A stretch of 64,000 bases of DNA from a phage (GCA_019326865.1 GCA_019326865.1_4101.1), one strand, 5' to 3'. Shown: positions 22,738-60,492, counted from the stretch's first letter. A program made the numbers and translations. Notes: generated from the sequence alone by a model not told the origin.

Positions 22738-22923
22738 ATGGAATATACAATATGTATAGTTATATGTATCATATCCTTACTAGTCGGGGTTGGTGTGATG
22801 ATTTATTGTGATGCAGAACCAAGTACAGAAGCAGGAACAACTATTGAACTTAAGCCTGGTATTAAGGTAAATGATTCATATTGTTACGATCCACATAGTA
22901 ATAAGTATGCGATTTGTCTATGA
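22738..22923 (+). CDS. small membrane protein
   Basis: 61 aa; N-terminal TM helix ICIVICIISLLVGVGVMIY. Confidence 0.5.
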   Translation: MEYTICIVICIISLLVGVGVMIYCDAEPSTEAGTTIELKPGIKVNDSYCYDPHSNKYAICL

Positions 22924-23874: not shown

Positions 23875-24987
23875 ATGAAAAAGTATTTGGTTGGAGGTTA
23901 TACGAGAGATCGTTTAATGGGCATCCGTGCAAAAGACAAAGATTATGTCATTGTTGGTGCAACTGAATCCGATATTAAGTACTTGCAAAGTATTGGTTAT
24001 AAGCAAGTAGGCAAGGACTTCCCTGTGTACTTGAGTCCAGAGGGTAATGAACACGCATTGGCTCGTACCGAGCGTAAGACTGGTACTGGATATGGTGGCT
24101 TCGAAGTGAATACAAAAGGTGTAACACTAGAACAAGATCTATATCGCCGTGATCTCACAATCAATAGTATTGCGTATGATCCAGTACTACAGATTCACAT
24201 CGACCCTTATGGTGGGAAAGCTGATATCAAGAACAAAGTACTTCGTCATGTATCAGAACACTTTAAAGAAGATCCATTGCGTGTTCTACGTTTGGCCCGT
24301 TTCGCTACACGTTACTCAGACTTTTCTATCCATGAAAGTACAGAGGAACTTGCTATTGGTATGGTCAATAGTGGTGAATTAGATCATCTTGTTCCAGACC
24401 GTGTTTTTGTAGAATTTGAAAAAGCATTTTCTGAAGAAAAACCTGCAAAGTTCCTTAAGACGCTAAGTAAATTTGGTTATTATGAGAAAGTTTTCAAAAC
24501 ATCTCTAACTAAAAAGAATTTAGACCTAATTGATTATATTTCTGAAAACTGTACTGATGTATATAAGCCATATTTTTTATGGTCAGTACTTCTTGAAAAT
24601 GAAGAAGTAAATAATGATTCAGTACTTAACGGTGCTATTAAAGTTCCAGTTAAGTATGTTAAATTTAGCAATTATATCAAACGTTTCCGTGATGATATCA
24701 AAACATTTCGTAAAAAGACCCCAAATGAAATGGGACAGTTATTACTGGAAATGAATATCAAGAATAACGGTGGTGAAGAATTTCTTTACAAAGTACTGGA
24801 ATATTTCATTCTAAGTAAAGAAATTGATTTAGAACTTGAAGATCTAATTATTAAAGTTTATGATCGATATACTGATGTTGAATTACCTGATATTCAGCAA
24901 TTGGTTAAAGATGGTGAACTAGAAACGTCAGAAATTCGTGATTTTGTTTGTGAACTTCGTTACGAAGCAATCAAACAAATGTTCTAA
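23875..24987 (+). CDS. cca: tRNA nucleotidyltransferase (CCA-adding enzyme, class II)
   Basis: LVGGYTRDRLMG...KDKDYVIVGAT...DFPVYLSPEGNEHALARTERKTGTGYGGFEV...RRDLTINSIAYD parallels the E. coli Cca head domain; 370 aa, no obvious HD domain. Confidence 0.8.
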   Translation: MKKYLVGGYTRDRLMGIRAKDKDYVIVGATESDIKYLQSIGYKQVGKDFPVYLSPEGNEHALARTERKTGTGYGGFEVNTKGVTLEQDLYRRDLTINSIAYDPVLQIHIDPYGGKADIKNKVLRHVSEHFKEDPLRVLRLARFATRYSDFSIHESTEELAIGMVNSGELDHLVPDRVFVEFEKAFSEEKPAKFLKTLSKFGYYEKVFKTSLTKKNLDLIDYISENCTDVYKPYFLWSVLLENEEVNNDSVLNGAIKVPVKYVKFSNYIKRFRDDIKTFRKKTPNEMGQLLLEMNIKNNGGEEFLYKVLEYFILSKEIDLELEDLIIKVYDRYTDVELPDIQQLVKDGELETSEIRDFVCELRYEAIKQMF

Positions 24988-25094
24988 AAATAGTGAGACA
25001 AAAAACCAATAACTGATATAATTATTAGTATCTGAACATCGATTGATGAAAAAGAGATAAGATATGCGTTATAGTTGTGGTATAATATTTTATC

Positions 25095-25496
25095 GTGATG
25101 GTCAGATACTTATCGGACATACAACACGGACAGAAACATTGGGATTTACCTAAAGGAAAAGCAGAGGGCGATGAAACGTTCAAAGAAGCTGCTGTGCGTG
25201 AATGTTTTGAAGAGACAGGATATAAAATCGATGAAGATGATCTTCTGTTTCTTGGTGATGTATCCTATAGAAAGGGAAAAAGGTTGGTTCTTTTCTTTTA
25301 TACTGCTAAAGACAAGCCTGTACCAGATGAATTAGTATGTAAAAGCACTTATACTAATAGATATGGTAAGAGTCATCCAGAATTGGATAAGTTCATGTAT
25401 ATTGATGTACGAGAATGTCAAAAGTATTTGACTGAACGAATGTGTAACAGTATTATAAAAGCTGTTAAAGCTTTTCAAAGAAATAAAAGGAAATAA
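25095..25496 (+). CDS. Nudix hydrolase (N-terminal strand encoded in another frame at 25064-25153)
   Basis: Nudix box GKAEGDETFKEAAVRECFEETGY; GTG start; upstream frame encodes MRYSCGIIFYRDGQILIGHT. Confidence 0.7.
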   Translation: MMVRYLSDIQHGQKHWDLPKGKAEGDETFKEAAVRECFEETGYKIDEDDLLFLGDVSYRKGKRLVLFFYTAKDKPVPDELVCKSTYTNRYGKSHPELDKFMYIDVRECQKYLTERMCNSIIKAVKAFQRNKRK

Positions 25497-25497
25497 T

Positions 25498-25746
25498 ATG
25501 AAAGTTAAAATTTATGGTCGCACGACTGGATGTAAATTTTGTGATACTGCAAAAGCTGTGTGTGAACAAAATAATTTTGATATGGAGTTCATTGATATTG
25601 TTGCTGAAGGTATTGATGGTGCTAAACTATCAGAAATTTGTGGTGAACCAGTTCGTCAAGTTCCACAGATTTTCGTGAATGATGTTTATGTACCAGGTGG
25701 TTGTACTGGATTTATCGAAGGACTTAAAGAAGGTCGTTGGAAATAA
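25498..25746 (+). CDS. nrdC: glutaredoxin (NrdC-like)
   Basis: 82 aa; CKFC redox motif near N-terminus; overall similarity to T4 NrdC layout. Confidence 0.75.
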   Translation: MKVKIYGRTTGCKFCDTAKAVCEQNNFDMEFIDIVAEGIDGAKLSEICGEPVRQVPQIFVNDVYVPGGCTGFIEGLKEGRWK

Positions 25747-25988
25747 TGGATATTGAAAAAGTATCATCTCGTGCAAAACAACTAGCAGATACGTTGGGAG
25801 TAGAGTTTAAAATTCCTGATATCACTATCGCTAAAGAAAAAGCACAGAATAGAATTAATAAGATGAAAGAATATCTATCTAAACAGGAACAATATGATTC
25901 TGCCGTTGAATTTATTGTAAAATCGTTTAGTAAAGATGATATTTTGGCATTCATCAAATATGTGAAGGTTTCTAGTAACCCTAAATAA
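25737..25988 (+). CDS. hypothetical protein
   Basis: 83 aa ORF. Confidence 0.5.
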   Translation: MEIMDIEKVSSRAKQLADTLGVEFKIPDITIAKEKAQNRINKMKEYLSKQEQYDSAVEFIVKSFSKDDILAFIKYVKVSSNPK

Positions 25989-26018
25989 TAATGAAGAACA
26001 AAAGTTCTTCTTAACAAT

Positions 26019-26273
26019 TTGGGAGATACTATTATGCTCAGTTTTCGTGAACAATTAGCAAAAGGTCAAATTAAGACTCAAGCTCAAACTAATATTCCTA
26101 AAAAATCTGCATTTTTGGGAACAATTACGGAAGATGGATATTGTGACTATGATGCACCAGAAGATTCATGGTATATTACAAAAGACACAAAACGCAGTAA
26201 TAGACTTCACAAAAGTACAATAGCCAGAAAGCATCGAAAAGAATTGAAAAAAATTCGTTTCGGTGAAGAATAA
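26019..26273 (+). CDS. hypothetical protein
   Basis: 84 aa ORF. Confidence 0.5.
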   Translation: MGDTIMLSFREQLAKGQIKTQAQTNIPKKSAFLGTITEDGYCDYDAPEDSWYITKDTKRSNRLHKSTIARKHRKELKKIRFGEE

Positions 26274-26286
26274 TAAAATACAAATT

Positions 26287-26316
26287 AAGGACTCTGTAAT
26301 TGGAGTCCTTTCTTTT
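26287..26316 (+). terminator. intrinsic terminator
   Basis: stem AAGGACTC/GAGTCCTT, T-run. Confidence 0.65.
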
Positions 26317-26327
26317 CGGAGAATATA

Positions 26328-26804
26328 ATGATTCATGAACACCGAGGTAATCTGTTTGAATTATTCAGTACTGTTACCGATGATCAAAATGCATTACATA
26401 TTATTGCTCACGGATGTAATGCTCAAGGTAAGATGGGTTCCGGTTTCGCAAAGGAACTAAGGAATCGCTACCCAATGGCATATGATGATTATAAAGCATA
26501 TGAAAAGGAAATGGGATTTCTTAGAATTGGACAAATTGCATATTCAGCAATTAACGATAATTTGATTATTGCAAACTGTATTACCCAAAAAATGTACGGT
26601 AATGACGGTGCTAAATATGTCAGTTATGATGCAATTGACGATGTGTTCAAACATCTAAATTATTTTTGTAAAGTTGATCAAGATGTTCATGTACATTTCC
26701 CGAAAATTGGAGCCGATTTGGGTGGCGGTAACTGGAACGTTATCAAAGAAATCATTGATCACCGACTGGTCAATGCAGAAAAACACTTATACATTCTAAA
26801 ATAA
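26328..26804 (+). CDS. macro domain protein (ADP-ribose binding/processing)
   Basis: HIIAHGCNAQGKMGSGFAKEL and FPKIGADLGGGNW match the macro-domain N-x(6)-G-x-G and hydrophobic-P-x-I-G-x-G signatures. Confidence 0.65.
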   Translation: MIHEHRGNLFELFSTVTDDQNALHIIAHGCNAQGKMGSGFAKELRNRYPMAYDDYKAYEKEMGFLRIGQIAYSAINDNLIIANCITQKMYGNDGAKYVSYDAIDDVFKHLNYFCKVDQDVHVHFPKIGADLGGGNWNVIKEIIDHRLVNAEKHLYILK

Positions 26805-37475: not shown

Positions 37476-38486
<1,011 letters not shown>

Positions 38487-58350: not shown

Positions 58351-60492
58351 TTATGGTAGGGTTATGTACGTTACTGGTTGGGCGGCTTTTAATGATGCAC
58401 CAGCGGCAGTTGCTGTTATGATGGGATCTGCAATATCAATTCTATATACGTTATTAACAACATATACTGCACGAGTTATATACGTTTTCAAATCATCACC
58501 ATTTTCTCCAGCACCAGATATGATGATCTCAGTTCCCGCCGCTTTTGCATATTGGTTATCACCCCATGACACACCCAATGCTTCTATGTACGTTTGTCCT
58601 ACTACCGTTTGTCTAATTGTGTCATATTTTCCAAAAAATGAACCACCCACTGTTACAATATATTTTCCACCTGATTTTTTATGTATAATCGTTCCTTCTG
58701 GGAAGTATCTTCCACCAGGGAAAGTATCATATGGAATATAATATTGTTCAACTACAGGTATTAGTACTGGGCCACGATGACCAGTACCGTCAATAGCAGT
58801 TGTTACTTTAAAATTATTAGATGATTGGTCGATTCTATCTACATACATTTTAGAAAAACTATATTTTGAAACATTACAATCATCTTGAACAACACAGTTA
58901 GTCCAATTAGTATAAGTATATTTAGAGCGAGTATACATTCCCCCACCCTCACCTTCAGTGGAAAGGTGTTGTCCTATTACATCTAATTCTTTTGTTCTGA
59001 TATCACTAAACTTAGATGAAGATGGTAGACCACGCCAAAGAATTTTAGAACAAGTGATATTACTTAATTCTGTACTATTCAGCCAATTATCAGAACCAGA
59101 AGTATAAACGAATACGGAAGACTCTGGTATATAGAGATTGGAAATTTTAAAGTTTCTAGGTGGTCCAGCAAATCGACCAGCAGTTACCCCCCAGTTAATA
59201 GATACCATACGGTTTGTGATTGTAGGATCATTAAGTAAATGTCCGGTTAAACCATCAATTACAAACTCTTTTGAGCCATAAGTTATCACACCAGCAGTTG
59301 TTAATCCTGTACCAACAGAAATTAAAGATGATGGGTACACCTCATTGTCAAGTATTTTGAAATCCATCCCCAATTCGACATGGATGCATTGTCTAACATT
59401 ATAAAGTCTATTATTCTTAATAACAAAGTTTCTAACATATTGAGTATCAGGGGCATCCAAATCATAAGGACCAGAACCAGCTACACCGATACCAATACCC
59501 CAGTTTGAAAGCGGGATTGGTGCATCAGAGCCATCAACATTTTCAATTATATTACCTTCGATCACAAAACCATCAGGATAATGTGAGTTAATAACGTTCA
59601 ATTCAATTGCATCCCCGTAGATATCATGAATGTGGTTATATGAATAACGACCAACTTTCATTTTCTCACCAGTACCCTGTTGGAGAACGCCATATTTGCA
59701 TTTAGTCATTTCATTAAAGCAAAAATCAATTGTACCTGGTTGAGTCATACCTTGCATCAAAAACGCAGCAGTACTGGTAATGTTTATAAATTTATTAAAA
59801 TAAAATTTACCATCCCCACCAAAGAATTTCAAATAACATCCAGTAAGTGTGGTGAATTGAATTTGTGAATTAATAACGGATATCATAGTACCACCATTAC
59901 CAGTAATAGTGCCACCAAACCAAGTTACATCTTCCAAATATACTGCTTTTTTGATACGATAATTACCACCTGCTTGAATTTGTATTTTATTTTCTTTGGC
60001 ATAAGTTGCACACAAATTTACAGCTTCAGTGTCATCGGTTTCCCCATCTCCTTTCGCACCAAATTCTTCTGGTGTTATATAGAACTGTGCTTGTTGAACT
60101 GTGCCACCAGTAATAAGGCCAATGAAATCACCACCATTTTTACTTGATAGTACTTTTTTATTAATGTATAGTGATTTAATCCATGTGCCATTTGTTTTTA
60201 CGAAAATATCAACAATACCATCTTCATCAATTTGAAAATAAGTGTTATTGTTTTTTCCAATATCGCCAGACGGTGGTTGAACGCCAAATAAGGCATTTGG
60301 ATTATCTTCAAGGTATCTAACATTAACTGCTGAATCTTGGTCTGATGGTGTTCCTATCTTTAGTGGTAGGAACTTTTCACCGAGATAATCTTTTATCGAT
60401 ACGGAATCATTGACGAAATTTATCGAAGCACCATTTTTACCCAATATCATTTTTGGTTTCATGGTTCCTTCAAAATTAGAAAATACTGCCAT
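58351..60492 (-). CDS. tailspike with pectate-lyase-type beta-helix domain (putative depolymerase)
   Basis: FGAKGDGETDDTEAVNLCATYA is the hallmark start of pectate-lyase-superfamily beta-helix domains. Confidence 0.65.
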   Translation of the reverse strand: MAVFSNFEGTMKPKMILGKNGASINFVNDSVSIKDYLGEKFLPLKIGTPSDQDSAVNVRYLEDNPNALFGVQPPSGDIGKNNNTYFQIDEDGIVDIFVKTNGTWIKSLYINKKVLSSKNGGDFIGLITGGTVQQAQFYITPEEFGAKGDGETDDTEAVNLCATYAKENKIQIQAGGNYRIKKAVYLEDVTWFGGTITGNGGTMISVINSQIQFTTLTGCYLKFFGGDGKFYFNKFINITSTAAFLMQGMTQPGTIDFCFNEMTKCKYGVLQQGTGEKMKVGRYSYNHIHDIYGDAIELNVINSHYPDGFVIEGNIIENVDGSDAPIPLSNWGIGIGVAGSGPYDLDAPDTQYVRNFVIKNNRLYNVRQCIHVELGMDFKILDNEVYPSSLISVGTGLTTAGVITYGSKEFVIDGLTGHLLNDPTITNRMVSINWGVTAGRFAGPPRNFKISNLYIPESSVFVYTSGSDNWLNSTELSNITCSKILWRGLPSSSKFSDIRTKELDVIGQHLSTEGEGGGMYTRSKYTYTNWTNCVVQDDCNVSKYSFSKMYVDRIDQSSNNFKVTTAIDGTGHRGPVLIPVVEQYYIPYDTFPGGRYFPEGTIIHKKSGGKYIVTVGGSFFGKYDTIRQTVVGQTYIEALGVSWGDNQYAKAAGTEIIISGAGENGDDLKTYITRAVYVVNNVYRIDIADPIITATAAGASLKAAQPVTYITLP

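What the first reader, a model, noticed from the sequence alone, without database searches (positions are those of the whole stretch)
25064..25496. Nudix hydrolase gene split by a +1 frame change
The frame beginning at ATG 25064 encodes MRYSCGIIFYRDGQILIGHT, a typical Nudix N-terminal strand, then stops at 25151. The Nudix box (GKAEGDETFKEAAVRECFEETGY) is encoded one frame over in the ORF starting GTG 25095. So either a sequencing indel, a recent inactivating frameshift, an N-terminally truncated enzyme from the GTG start, or programmed frameshifting. An extended -10-like TGgTATAAT (25078-25086) lies inside the upstream fragment.
Basis: seen in the sequence. Interest (0 to 1): 0.45.

Follow-up and report, generated by a model that had tools for sequence, protein, structure and literature searches.

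The report
Conserved +1 frameshift in phage Nudix gene
A Nudix hydrolase gene of an E. coli jumbo phage carries a one-base insertion shared by every sequenced member of its genus; both halves are still under selection, and the break sits on the phage's rarest codon, so the full enzyme is most likely made by ribosomes skipping one base.

Summary
ATG 25064 opens a 29-codon frame that encodes the first two strands of a Nudix fold. The Nudix box and the rest of the enzyme continue one base over, to 25496.

It is not a sequencing error or a recent inactivation. All 35 Asteriusvirus (121Q/PBECO4-like) records show the split. In the 15 genomes I fetched and aligned, the block CATACAACACGGACA (25118-25132) is invariant. 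Every relative outside the genus has one intact ORF reading GHTTGQxHWDLPKG.

Substitutions upstream of the block are synonymous in the ATG 25064 frame. Downstream they are synonymous in the +1 frame, with dN/dS about 0.05 at dS up to about 1.1.

The junction reads ACA-CGG-A. CGG is the rarest codon in the phage (1 of 17,731). The +1 codon is GGA. A sister phage encodes tRNA-Thr(UGU) and tRNA-Gly(UCC), but no tRNA for CGG. Skipping C25127 regenerates the near-invariant Thr-Gly-Gln of the orthologs.

Best reading (about 0.55): a fixed insertion compensated by +1 ribosomal frameshifting at a slow codon without tRNA re-pairing. This resembles yeast Ty3 and glass-sponge mitochondrial CGG_A/UGG_A sites. 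It is unproven. Rivals are a two-piece enzyme, or a truncated enzyme plus a leader peptide. All GenBank records annotate only the truncated ORF.

The parts
24993..25022 (+). Promoter-like site in the cca-nudix intergenic region, with an extended -10 TGATATAAT at 25014-25022.
   Evidence: Scored 10 of 12 with TG before the -10. The -10 region is conserved in the Asteriusvirus sequences that cover it. Function not tested.
25052..25057 (+). Weak Shine-Dalgarno-like AAGAGA, 7 nt upstream of ATG 25064.
   Evidence: Duplex energy with the anti-SD is -2.9 kcal/mol, weaker than about 80% of long-ORF starts in the window. ATG 25098 scores -2.8, so this feature does not discriminate between the two starts.
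25064..25126 (+). Zero-frame coding part: Met1-Thr21 (MRYSCGIIFYRDGQILIGHTT), which forms strands 1 and 2 of the Nudix sheet.
   Evidence: Identical to intact orthologs except for I/V at residue 17 and S/T at residue 4. Among 16 Asteriusvirus sequences, 5 of 6 variable sites are at third codon positions of this frame and 1 gives Ile to Val. Strands 2-8 and 14-20 appear in the AF2 model of ortholog P0002, pLDDT 94.
25118..25132 (+). Invariant 15-nt block CAT ACA ACA CGG ACA, the proposed shift site with its immediate context.
   Evidence: No variation in the 16 aligned Asteriusvirus sequences or in metagenome contig L037. The flanking synonymous sites 25112, 25114, 25117, 25133 and 25136 all vary. 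In intact orthologs the His, Thr, Thr and Gly codons all vary at the third position.
25127..25129 (+). Zero-frame A-site codon CGG (Arg). C25127 is the extra base relative to intact orthologs and is the base proposed to be skipped.
   Evidence: Orthologs read CAT ACA ACC GGA CAA (L038/L040) or CAT ACT ACC GGA CAA (PHA46), against CAT ACA ACA C GGA CAG here. CGG is 1 of 17,731 codons in the window and 2 of 17,592 in 69 kb of phage Sharanji, the rarest sense codon in both.
25128..25496 (+). +1-frame coding part: Gly22-Lys143 plus stop TAA 25494-96. It includes the Nudix box at 25155-25223.
   Evidence: Pfam NUDIX match, E = 8.7e-13. Variable sites by codon position are 20, 10 and 64. dN/dS is about 0.05 at dS 0.3-1.1 within the genus.
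25151..25153 (+). Zero-frame stop TAA, where ribosomes that do not shift would terminate and release a 29-residue peptide.
   Evidence: The ORF1 tail after the site (RTETLGFT) varies non-conservatively among genomes: RTESLGLT, RTTALGFT, RTAALGFT.
25098..25100 (+). ATG used as the start of the 132-136-residue 'nudix hydrolase' CDS in GenBank records of related phages. It is the start of the rival truncated or second-piece product.
   Evidence: Its duplex energy with the anti-SD is about the same as for ATG 25064, so start-site strength is not informative. The head MVRYLSDIQH varies as MGRYLSGIQH and MVRYLLVIQH.
25078..25086 (+). Probably fortuitous.
   Evidence: Present. Changed to TGGAATAAT in ph0011 by a synonymous change. 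Not conserved in intact orthologs.

Best explanation
The window comes from an Asteriusvirus, a 121Q/PBECO4-like E. coli jumbo phage. Its T4 NudE-like Nudix hydrolase gene acquired a one-base insertion in the ancestor of the genus (ACC GGA became ACA C GGA).

Proposed mechanism. Translation starts at ATG 25064. With peptidyl-tRNA-Thr on ACA (25124-26), the A site presents CGG. This is the codon the phage almost never uses, and in E. coli it is read by a single isoacceptor. A fraction of ribosomes instead accept Gly-tRNA(UCC) on the overlapping +1 codon GGA (25128-30). They skip C25127 and continue in the +1 frame to 25496. The product is a 143-residue enzyme whose junction, GHTT-GQKHW, is exactly that of the intact orthologs. 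Ribosomes that read CGG normally terminate 8 codons later. The P-site tRNA cannot re-pair in the +1 frame (ACA to CAC). The event would therefore be of the Ty3 / glass-sponge mitochondrial type, not the prfB or Ty1 slippage type.

Shown here: the insertion, its genus-wide fixation, selection on both frames with a switch at the site, the rarity of CGG, and the phage tRNA set.

Inferred, not shown: that ribosomes actually shift, at this codon, and with what efficiency. The efficiency may be low.
For: 1. The disruption is fixed. All 35 Asteriusvirus records in the phage collection match the fused protein only from residue 13-22 in the +1 frame. Every non-Asteriusvirus relative matches from residue 1 in one piece. 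The 15 fetched genomes show the same arrangement.

2. Orthologs outside the genus are intact. These include PHA46, phiKp_21, CBB, GAP32, Munch, EJP2 and metagenomic P0001/P0002 at 82-83% identity. All read GHTTGQxHWDLPKG, and the DNA shows a single extra base here.

3. Codon periodicity of substitutions flips at the site.
- Positions 25067-25126: 0 variable sites at position 2, 1 at position 1 and 5 at position 3 of the ATG 25064 frame. That is at least 7 changes, of which 1 is nonsynonymous; P = 0.0007 against a random expectation of 78% nonsynonymous.
- Positions 25128-25493: 20, 10 and 64 variable sites in the +1 frame.
- The C-terminal part has dS 0.3-1.1 and dN 0.014-0.063 within the genus.

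4. The annotated +1-frame head and the zero-frame tail both change non-conservatively.

5. CGG is the rarest sense codon: 1 of 17,731 codons in the window and 2 of 17,592 in Sharanji.

6. Sharanji encodes tRNA-Thr(UGU) for ACA and tRNA-Gly(UCC) for GGA. Its tRNA-Arg is UCU, which does not read CGG.

7. T21, G22 and Q23 are at least 90% conserved in 39 orthologs. They are regenerated only by skipping C25127.

8. Residues 1-21 form two core strands in a pLDDT 94 model of an 83%-identical ortholog. The junction lies in a loop. The N-terminus also aligns to strands of the solved Ap4A hydrolase 3i7u.

9. There is a precedent. [quoted passage not shown]

10. The 15-nt site block is invariant while flanking synonymous sites vary.
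Against: - No protein, ribosome-profiling or reporter data exist for this gene.
- There is no slippery P-site codon, no SD-like element in a conserved position upstream (GGN 25115-17 varies), and no significant downstream RNA structure (z = -1.1). Efficiency could therefore be very low.
- In normal E. coli, CGG has an average ribosome pause score of about 1.0 (PMC8384417). It is rare in the phage but is not a strong pause site in the host.
- CGG arises automatically when a base is inserted before GGA after a C, so its presence is partly a by-product of where the insertion fell.
- Invariance of the four synonymous sites in the block is only suggestive (P about 0.07).
- Start-site strength does not favour ATG 25064 over ATG 25098.
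- The selection data fit a non-covalent two-piece enzyme equally well.
Confidence: 0.55

Rival explanations
1. Split enzyme. The insertion turned the gene into two cistrons. A 29-residue peptide (strands 1-2) is made from ATG 25064. A 132-residue protein is made from ATG 25098 by independent or coupled initiation. The two associate non-covalently to rebuild the Nudix fold.
For: Purifying selection on both the ORF1 peptide and the downstream ORF is equally expected under this model. The break lies in a surface loop between strands. ATG 25098 is present in all genomes. Its upstream region is AU-rich, and its duplex energy with the anti-SD is no worse than for ATG 25064. Synonymous sites in 25064-25126 are unusually conserved (5 of 20 against 64 of 122 third positions variable, P = 0.03). 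That could reflect an embedded initiation region.
Against: ATG 25098 is forced by the zero-frame Asp-Gly codons and is also present in intact orthologs, so its conservation is uninformative. The zero-frame stop lies 53 nt downstream of ATG 25098, which is poor geometry for coupling. The coincidence with the rarest codon, and the exact regeneration of the near-invariant T-G-Q, would be unexplained. The model needs a single mutation to produce two working parts at once.
Confidence: 0.17
2. Truncated enzyme plus leader. The functional product is the annotated 132-residue protein from ATG/GTG 25095-25098. ORF1 survives as a translated upstream ORF or as a nucleotide-level regulatory region, possibly including the internal TGGTATAAT promoter.
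For: This is the annotation in all GenBank records. The truncated ORF alone still passes the Pfam NUDIX threshold (48.9 bits). Excess synonymous conservation in 25064-25126 indicates some nucleotide-level constraint. The TGGTATAAT motif is present in 15 of the 16 aligned sequences.
Against: The truncated protein lacks two of the core strands. Its first 10 codons are not conserved as protein. A leader ORF would not need to keep an amino-acid sequence identical to the ancestral Nudix N-terminus (1 nonsynonymous of 7 changes, P = 0.0007). The internal -10 is broken in ph0011.
Confidence: 0.12
3. Other recoding route to the +1 frame. Options are a peptidyl-tRNA-His hop from CAT 25118 to CAC 25125 (product GH-GQKHW), quadruplet reading of CGGA by tRNA-Arg (product HTTRQKHW), or transcriptional slippage.
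For: CAT and CAC are both His codons, 7 nt apart. tRNA-Arg(CCG) is an m1G37-dependent tRNA (PMC8384417).
Against: Nothing stalls the ribosome after CAT. Both alternative products alter or delete near-invariant residues T21 and G22. There is no homopolymer run that could support RNA polymerase slippage. No tRNA with an unusual anticodon position was reported in the Sharanji tRNA cluster.
Confidence: 0.06
4. Artefact or dead gene: a sequencing error in this window, or a pseudogene in decay.
For: A single extra base in an otherwise continuous gene is the usual signature of either.
Against: The identical base is present in 35 independent genomes and in a metagenome contig. At neutral rates (dS about 1 in the flanking cca and grx genes and in the C-terminal part), about half of the 63 upstream bases should differ between clades. 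At most 3 do. dN/dS is about 0.05 downstream. A record with real errors (CMSTMSU, marked UNVERIFIED) shows what artefacts look like: extra homopolymer deletions in addition to the shared insertion.
Confidence: 0.03

Closest known systems
Glass-sponge (Hexactinellida) mitochondrial +1 frameshifts at UGG_A / CGG_A (PMC2267718; reviewed in PMC5009743)
   Same: A single inserted base lies immediately 5' of a GGA glycine codon. The zero-frame codon created (NGG) is almost unused in the genome. A conserved Gly is restored in the +1 frame. There is no P-site re-pairing. The case rests on homology in both frames, conservation of the disruption and codon rarity.
   Different: A bacterial 70S ribosome and a phage gene, not a mitochondrial one. 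The host does have a cognate tRNA-Arg(CCG). The phage itself supplies the tRNAs for the P-site codon and the +1 codon. It is a single gene here, not several.
Yeast Ty3 +1 frameshift (GCG_AGU_U)
   Same: [quoted passage not shown]
   Different: Ty3 has a 14-nt 3' stimulator and a special near-cognate P-site tRNA. No stimulator was found here, and ACA is read by a cognate tRNA. Ty3 makes two useful products (Gag and Gag-Pol). Here the unshifted product looks useless.
E. coli prfB (RF2) +1 programmed frameshift, CUU_UGA_C
   Same: A +1 shift on a bacterial ribosome, triggered by a slowly read A-site codon.
   Different: prfB uses a stop codon, a P-site tRNA that re-pairs (CUU to UUU) and an upstream SD-like stimulator. 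None of the three is present here.
'Corrective' or 'savior-indel' frameshifting, e.g. herpesvirus thymidine kinase G-run (PMC5009743) and an E. coli rpoB +1-nt frameshift mutation suppressed intrinsically (PMC7022156, seen only as title and abstract)
   Same: An indel is fixed in the DNA, low-level ribosomal frameshifting supplies enough full-length product, and the unshifted product is wasted.
   Different: Those cases are recent mutants under drug selection. Here the indel has persisted through a whole genus radiation, with synonymous sites close to saturation.
Phage T4 NudE (gene e.1) Nudix hydrolase, PHROG 1185
   Same: Same protein family (35-39% identity to T4-like NudE by tblastn; PHROG 1185 E = 2.4e-53) with a complete Nudix box. 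Fold neighbours are RppH, Ap4A hydrolase and Dcp2.
   Different: The T4-like and other jumbo-phage genes are single uninterrupted ORFs. Substrate is unknown here.

Membership tests
Nudix hydrolase superfamily (Pfam PF00293) | Nudix box GX5EX7REUXEEXGU with the catalytic Glu residues. | tested here: met
   GKAEGDETFKEAAVRECFEETGY at 25155-25223. G, E, RE and EE are all present.
Nudix hydrolase superfamily (Pfam PF00293) | Profile match above the curated threshold. | tested here: met
   48.9 bits for the annotated ORF and 52.7 bits for the fused protein. The cut-off is 21.1.
Nudix hydrolase superfamily (Pfam PF00293) | Complete alpha/beta/alpha fold, including the N-terminal strands, in one polypeptide. 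| tested here: inconclusive
   Strands 1-2 are encoded only in the zero frame. They are joined to the rest only if frameshifting occurs.
T4 NudE-like phage Nudix (PHROG 1185) | Full-length match to the family profile. | tested here: met
   The fused protein matches residues 1-141 to profile 147-296, at 182.5 bits. The annotated ORF reaches 161.1 bits.
Programmed or compensatory +1 ribosomal frameshift | Zero-frame and +1-frame ORFs that together are collinear with single-ORF homologs. | tested here: met
Programmed or compensatory +1 ribosomal frameshift | The frame disruption is conserved across diverged relatives. | tested here: met
   35 of 35 Asteriusvirus records, with dS up to about 1.1.
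Programmed or compensatory +1 ribosomal frameshift | Purifying selection in each frame on its own side of the site. | tested here: met
   Codon periodicity flips between 25117 and 25133.
Programmed or compensatory +1 ribosomal frameshift | A slow-to-decode zero-frame codon in the A site. | tested here: inconclusive
   CGG is the rarest phage codon. In E. coli it is read by the single isoacceptor tRNA-Arg(CCG). However, its pause score in normal E. coli is about 1.0 (PMC8384417).
Programmed or compensatory +1 ribosomal frameshift | A well-supplied tRNA for the +1-frame codon. | tested here: met
   tRNA-Gly(UCC) is encoded by the sister phage Sharanji. GGA is 216 of 17,731 codons. The tRNA region of the window's own genome was not available.
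Programmed or compensatory +1 ribosomal frameshift | A trans-frame protein is demonstrated. | not testable with these tools
   No proteomic or reporter data were found. The literature searches and the Sharanji paper do not mention it.
prfB/Ty1-type slippage +1 frameshift | The P-site tRNA can re-pair in the +1 frame. | tested here: not met
   ACA would have to re-pair on CAC, with no complementary position.
prfB/Ty1-type slippage +1 frameshift | An upstream SD-like stimulator or a conserved 3' stimulator. | tested here: not met
   The only GG upstream (25115-17) varies as GGA, GGG and GGT. Synonymous sites vary from 25133 on. There is no significant RNA structure.
Transcriptional slippage | A homopolymeric run of A or T at the site. 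| tested here: not met
   The longest run in 25118-25140 is AAA.
Suppressor-tRNA quadruplet decoding | A phage tRNA with an enlarged anticodon loop. | tested here: not met
   ARAGORN reports seven tRNAs with ordinary three-base anticodons in the Sharanji tRNA cluster and none in the window. The rest of the genome was not scanned.

The most novel reading that the evidence does not exclude
The frameshift is not merely tolerated but used as a regulator. The fraction of ribosomes that read GGA instead of CGG would depend on the ratio of phage-supplied tRNA-Gly(UCC) to the host's single tRNA-Arg(CCG), which is m1G37-dependent. The Nudix enzyme would then be made only once phage tRNAs accumulate, or when host tRNA-Arg(CCG) is depleted or undermodified. 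That would be a tRNA-pool sensor built from a non-slippery +1 site on a bacterial ribosome. The unusually conserved synonymous sites in 25064-25126 would be part of the signal.
Probability: 0.15. Interest if true: 0.75.

Novelty: new variant of a known kind. Interest (0 to 1): 0.55.

Why it matters
Very few +1 frameshifts are known on bacterial ribosomes, and the textbook case (prfB) depends on tRNA slippage, a stop codon and an SD-like stimulator.

A genus-wide, long-maintained +1 site with none of these features would bring the Ty3 / sponge-mitochondria type of shift into E. coli. That type is still mechanistically disputed: occlusion of one base, or out-of-frame tRNA binding. In E. coli it could be dissected with standard reporters, tRNA overexpression and in vitro translation.

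It also matters practically. All 35 public genomes annotate a truncated 'nudix hydrolase' lacking two core strands, and gene callers will keep doing so.

If the rival two-piece model is right instead, this would be a natural example of a Nudix fold split by one mutation and kept functional. That would also be unusual.

Tried and rejected
- Sequencing error and recent pseudogene: rejected by comparative data.
- Downstream RNA structure as a stimulator: 25100-25220 folds no better than shuffles (z = -1.1). I did not pursue an alignment fold because synonymous sites just 3' of the site vary freely.
- SD-strength comparison of the two candidate starts: uninformative, -2.9 against -2.8 kcal/mol.
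- tRNAs in the window: none. I fetched the tRNA cluster from the related phage Sharanji instead. The first region fetched missed it; the second contained it.
- Other CGG-associated frame breaks in the window: the candidates at 58404, 59115 and 60402 lie antisense to a 713-residue gene on the minus strand and are spurious. The site at 22785 is just a gene in the other frame.
- Other +1 sites inside the overlap, such as UUU_U at 25088-91: rejected, because the substitution periodicity stays in the zero frame until 25117.
- Peptidyl-tRNA hop from ACA: the next ACA codons are all in frame, so this gives no rescue.
- The metagenome scan added only one more frameshifted contig (L037). The others were intact relatives.
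- Literature searches found no report of this frameshift.
- One search and one lookup failed on term syntax.

Full report
**What is in the sequence**

The window between 23875 and 26804 encodes four plus-strand genes. They are a CCA-adding tRNA nucleotidyltransferase (23875-24987), the Nudix locus (25064-25496), a glutaredoxin (25498-25746) and, further on, a 158-residue ORF (26328-26804).

- ATG 25064 opens MRYSCGIIFYRDGQILIGHTTRTETLGFT and ends at TAA 25151-53.
- The +1 frame is closed by TAA at 25083-85. It is then open from 25086 to TAA 25494-96.
- The +1 frame contains GTG 25095, ATG 25098 and the Nudix box GKAEGDETFKEAAVRECFEETGY (25155-25223).

**Where the window comes from, and whether this is an error**

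Megablast places the window in Asteriusvirus, the 121Q/PBECO4-like E. coli jumbo phages of about 350 kb. The best hit is UE-S1 at 95.5%.

- In all records inspected, the Nudix CDS is annotated as a 132-136-residue protein starting at the equivalent of ATG 25098.
- I aligned 15 genomes from at least five haplotype groups, down to about 85% nucleotide identity. All have the same two-frame arrangement and an invariant CATACAACACGGACA at 25118-25132.
- A tblastn search with the conceptually fused protein shows the same for all 35 Asteriusvirus records. They match only from residue 13-22 onward in one frame (the short N-terminal piece appears as a second fragment).
- One metagenome contig (L037) has the same arrangement.
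- A sequencing error in this window, or in any one genome, is therefore excluded.
- The one low-quality record (CMSTMSU, marked UNVERIFIED) carries additional homopolymer deletions on top of the shared insertion. That is what real errors look like.

**Relatives outside the genus are intact**

These include Salmonella phages PHA46, Munch, 7t3 and SE_PL, Escherichia phage EJP2, Pectobacterium CBB and Cronobacter GAP32. They also include Yersinia fHe-Yen9-04, Klebsiella phiKp_21, IMG/VR contigs, and metagenomic proteins P0001/P0002 at 82-83% identity.

- All have a single ORF of 141-148 residues beginning MRY(S/T)CGIIFYRDGQIL(I/V)GHTTGQxHWDLPKGK.
- At the DNA level they read, for example, CAT ACA ACC GGA CAA (L038/L040) or CAT ACT ACC GGA CAA (PHA46). 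The window reads CAT ACA ACA C GGA CAG, which is one extra base.
- Reading ACA (25124-26), omitting C25127 and continuing with GGA (25128-30) gives GHTT-GQKHW. T21, G22 and Q23 are each conserved in at least 90% of 39 orthologs.

**Both halves are still coding**

I compared 16 Asteriusvirus sequences.

| Segment | Frame | Variable sites at codon positions 1 / 2 / 3 |
|---|---|---|
| 25067-25126 | ATG 25064 frame | 1 / 0 / 5 |
| 25128-25493 | +1 frame | 20 / 10 / 64 |

- The single first-position change upstream gives Ile to Val, which is also seen among intact orthologs.
- In the annotated +1 frame, the upstream changes would be Val/Gly, Ser/Leu and Asp/Gly/Val.
- From 25133 on, the variable sites fall on third positions of the +1 frame. 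The zero-frame tail changes freely: RTETLGFT, RTESLGLT, RTTALGFT, RTAALGFT.
- Counting at least 7 changes in ORF1, only 1 is nonsynonymous, where 78% would be expected at random (P = 0.0007).
- Pairwise, the +1-frame part has dS 0.30-1.14 and dN 0.014-0.063 within the genus.
- The flanking cca and grx genes have dS 0.2-1.95 for the same pairs.
- The insertion has therefore persisted while synonymous sites approached saturation. A decaying remnant would differ at roughly half of its 63 bases between clades. The observed maximum is 3.

**The N-terminal part matters structurally**

- An AlphaFold2 model of the 83%-identical intact ortholog P0002 (pLDDT 94.3) puts residues 2-8 and 14-20 in two strands of the central sheet. 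Residues 21-25 form a loop.
- The fused sequence aligns from residue 3 to the first strands of the solved Aquifex Ap4A hydrolase 3i7u.
- Fold neighbours are RppH, Ap4A hydrolases and Dcp2.
- PHROG 1185 scores 182.5 bits for the fused protein against 161.1 for the annotated one.
- The annotated protein would replace two core strands with ten non-homologous, unconserved residues.

**The site itself**

- The zero-frame codon at the junction is CGG.
- In 58 long ORFs of the window, CGG occurs once in 17,731 codons (607 Arg codons). It is the rarest sense codon, 20 times rarer than the next, CCC.
- In 69 kb of the related phage Sharanji it occurs twice in 17,592 codons. One of these lies upstream of the annotated start.
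- CGG trinucleotides are common in the window, but in the other frames.
- The overlapping +1 codon GGA is an ordinary Gly codon, 216 occurrences.
- Sharanji encodes seven tRNAs, confirmed by ARAGORN. Among them are Thr(UGU), which reads the P-site codon ACA, and Gly(UCC), which reads GGA. Its Arg tRNA is UCU, which does not read CGG.
- CGG is read in E. coli by the single isoacceptor tRNA-Arg(CCG) (PMC8384417). That this tRNA is a minor species is from my own knowledge.
- The site thus has the three ingredients of a 'hungry codon' +1 shift. What it lacks is any possibility of P-site re-pairing, since ACA would have to re-pair on CAC.
- This is the geometry described for yeast Ty3. More strikingly, it matches glass-sponge mitochondrial genes, where single inserted T or C bases lie immediately 5' of GGA and create the nearly unused codons UGG or CGG.

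**Weak or negative points**

- I found no stimulatory element. The only upstream GG (25115-17) varies at its third position. Synonymous sites vary again from 25133. The local RNA fold is not better than shuffles.
- Normal E. coli does not pause notably at CGG; the pause score is about 1.0. Efficiency may be low unless infection changes the tRNA balance.
- CGG is partly a by-product of inserting a base between AC and C-GGA. That may, however, be exactly why this particular insertion could be fixed.
- The invariance of the four synonymous positions in the 15-nt block is only suggestive (P about 0.07).
- Duplex energies with the anti-SD do not separate ATG 25064 from ATG 25098.
- An unexpected observation: synonymous sites across the whole ORF1 segment are more conserved than in the rest of the gene or its neighbours. 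Third positions are variable at 5 of 20 sites against 64 of 122 (P = 0.03). Pairwise dS is 0-0.27 against 0.3-1.1. This could reflect ordinary constraints on an initiation region, part of a recoding signal, or an embedded initiation region or promoter for the downstream frame. I cannot tell which.

**Rivals**

- Two-polypeptide enzyme (29-residue peptide plus 132-residue protein). This fits the selection data equally well, and the break is in a loop. It does not explain the coincidence with the rarest codon or the exact restoration of T-G-Q. It would need reinitiation 53 nt upstream of the zero-frame stop, or independent initiation at a start with no clear ribosome-binding site.
- Truncated enzyme with ORF1 as a leader. 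This does not explain why ORF1 keeps the ancestral amino-acid sequence.
- Hopping from CAT to CAC, quadruplet reading of CGGA, or transcriptional slippage. These are possible in principle, but they alter near-invariant residues or lack the required sequence features.
It is broken in ph0011 and absent from intact orthologs. A conserved TGATATAAT in the intergenic region (25014-22) is better placed to drive a transcript that includes ATG 25064.

**Verdict**

The most likely explanation (about 0.55) is a fixed one-base insertion compensated by +1 ribosomal frameshifting at ACA_CGG_A, of the non-slippage type. This type has not, to my knowledge, been described for a phage or for E. coli ribosomes, and my literature searches found no report of it for this gene. 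It is a new variant of a known kind of recoding, directly testable in E. coli, and it implies that the public annotation of this gene in all Asteriusvirus genomes is incomplete.

Noticed in passing
window, all long ORFs; L046/L047 (phage Sharanji): CGG is almost absent as an in-frame codon: 1 of 17,731 codons in the window and 2 of 17,592 in Sharanji. CGG trinucleotides are common in the other frames. This avoidance is far stronger than for AGG (26) or CCC (20).
   Followed up: partly
window 37881-37883, in ORF 37476-37895 (+): This is the only in-frame CGG in a long plus-strand ORF other than the Nudix site. It is also followed by A (AAC CGG ATT GGA) and lies four codons before the stop (...KNNRIGI*). 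I did not check whether it is conserved or whether a +1 extension is used.
   Followed up: no
window 25064-25126, against 25128-25493 and the flanking cca and grx genes: Synonymous sites in the first 63 nt of the Nudix gene are about 2-5 times more conserved within Asteriusvirus than in the rest of the gene or its neighbours. The same codons vary freely among intact orthologs. Cause unknown.
   Followed up: partly
proteins P0010, P0014, P0016, P0017, P0020, P0021; L005 734-1144 and 1134-1382: In several metagenomic relatives, Nudix and the downstream glutaredoxin are one 225-227-residue fusion protein (PF00293 + PF00462). In the fEgEco12 clade the two ORFs overlap by 11 nt. This points to a functional link between the two enzymes.
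   Followed up: no
L047 19374-19463 and 19471-19562 (phage Sharanji): The phage tRNA set includes a 90-nt 'tRNA-Met(CAU)' and a tRNA-Ser with the unusual anticodon ACU. Both are long type-II-like tRNAs, and their real identities were not examined.
   Followed up: no
window 23875-26804: The Nudix gene sits in a conserved block of CCA-adding enzyme, Nudix, glutaredoxin, two small ORFs and a 158-residue ORF (26328-26804). One related record listed an 'Appr-1-p processing domain protein' (macro domain) among features near this locus (H13). I did not check that it corresponds to this ORF. Upstream in a metagenomic relative lies a ribosome hibernation factor (S30AE) homolog. This looks like a cluster of RNA and nucleotide-metabolism functions.
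   Followed up: no
L023 (MH494197, phage CMSTMSU): This UNVERIFIED record has extra single-base deletions in homopolymer runs of the Nudix gene (AGAAA-GGG and AAA-GG), and its ORFs are fragmented in the annotation. These are likely assembly errors.
   Followed up: partly
window 24950-25550: The best public match over these 601 nt is only 95.5% identical (UE-S1). This is a single 601-nt segment, so it shows only that the window is not identical to any deposited Asteriusvirus at this locus.
   Followed up: no
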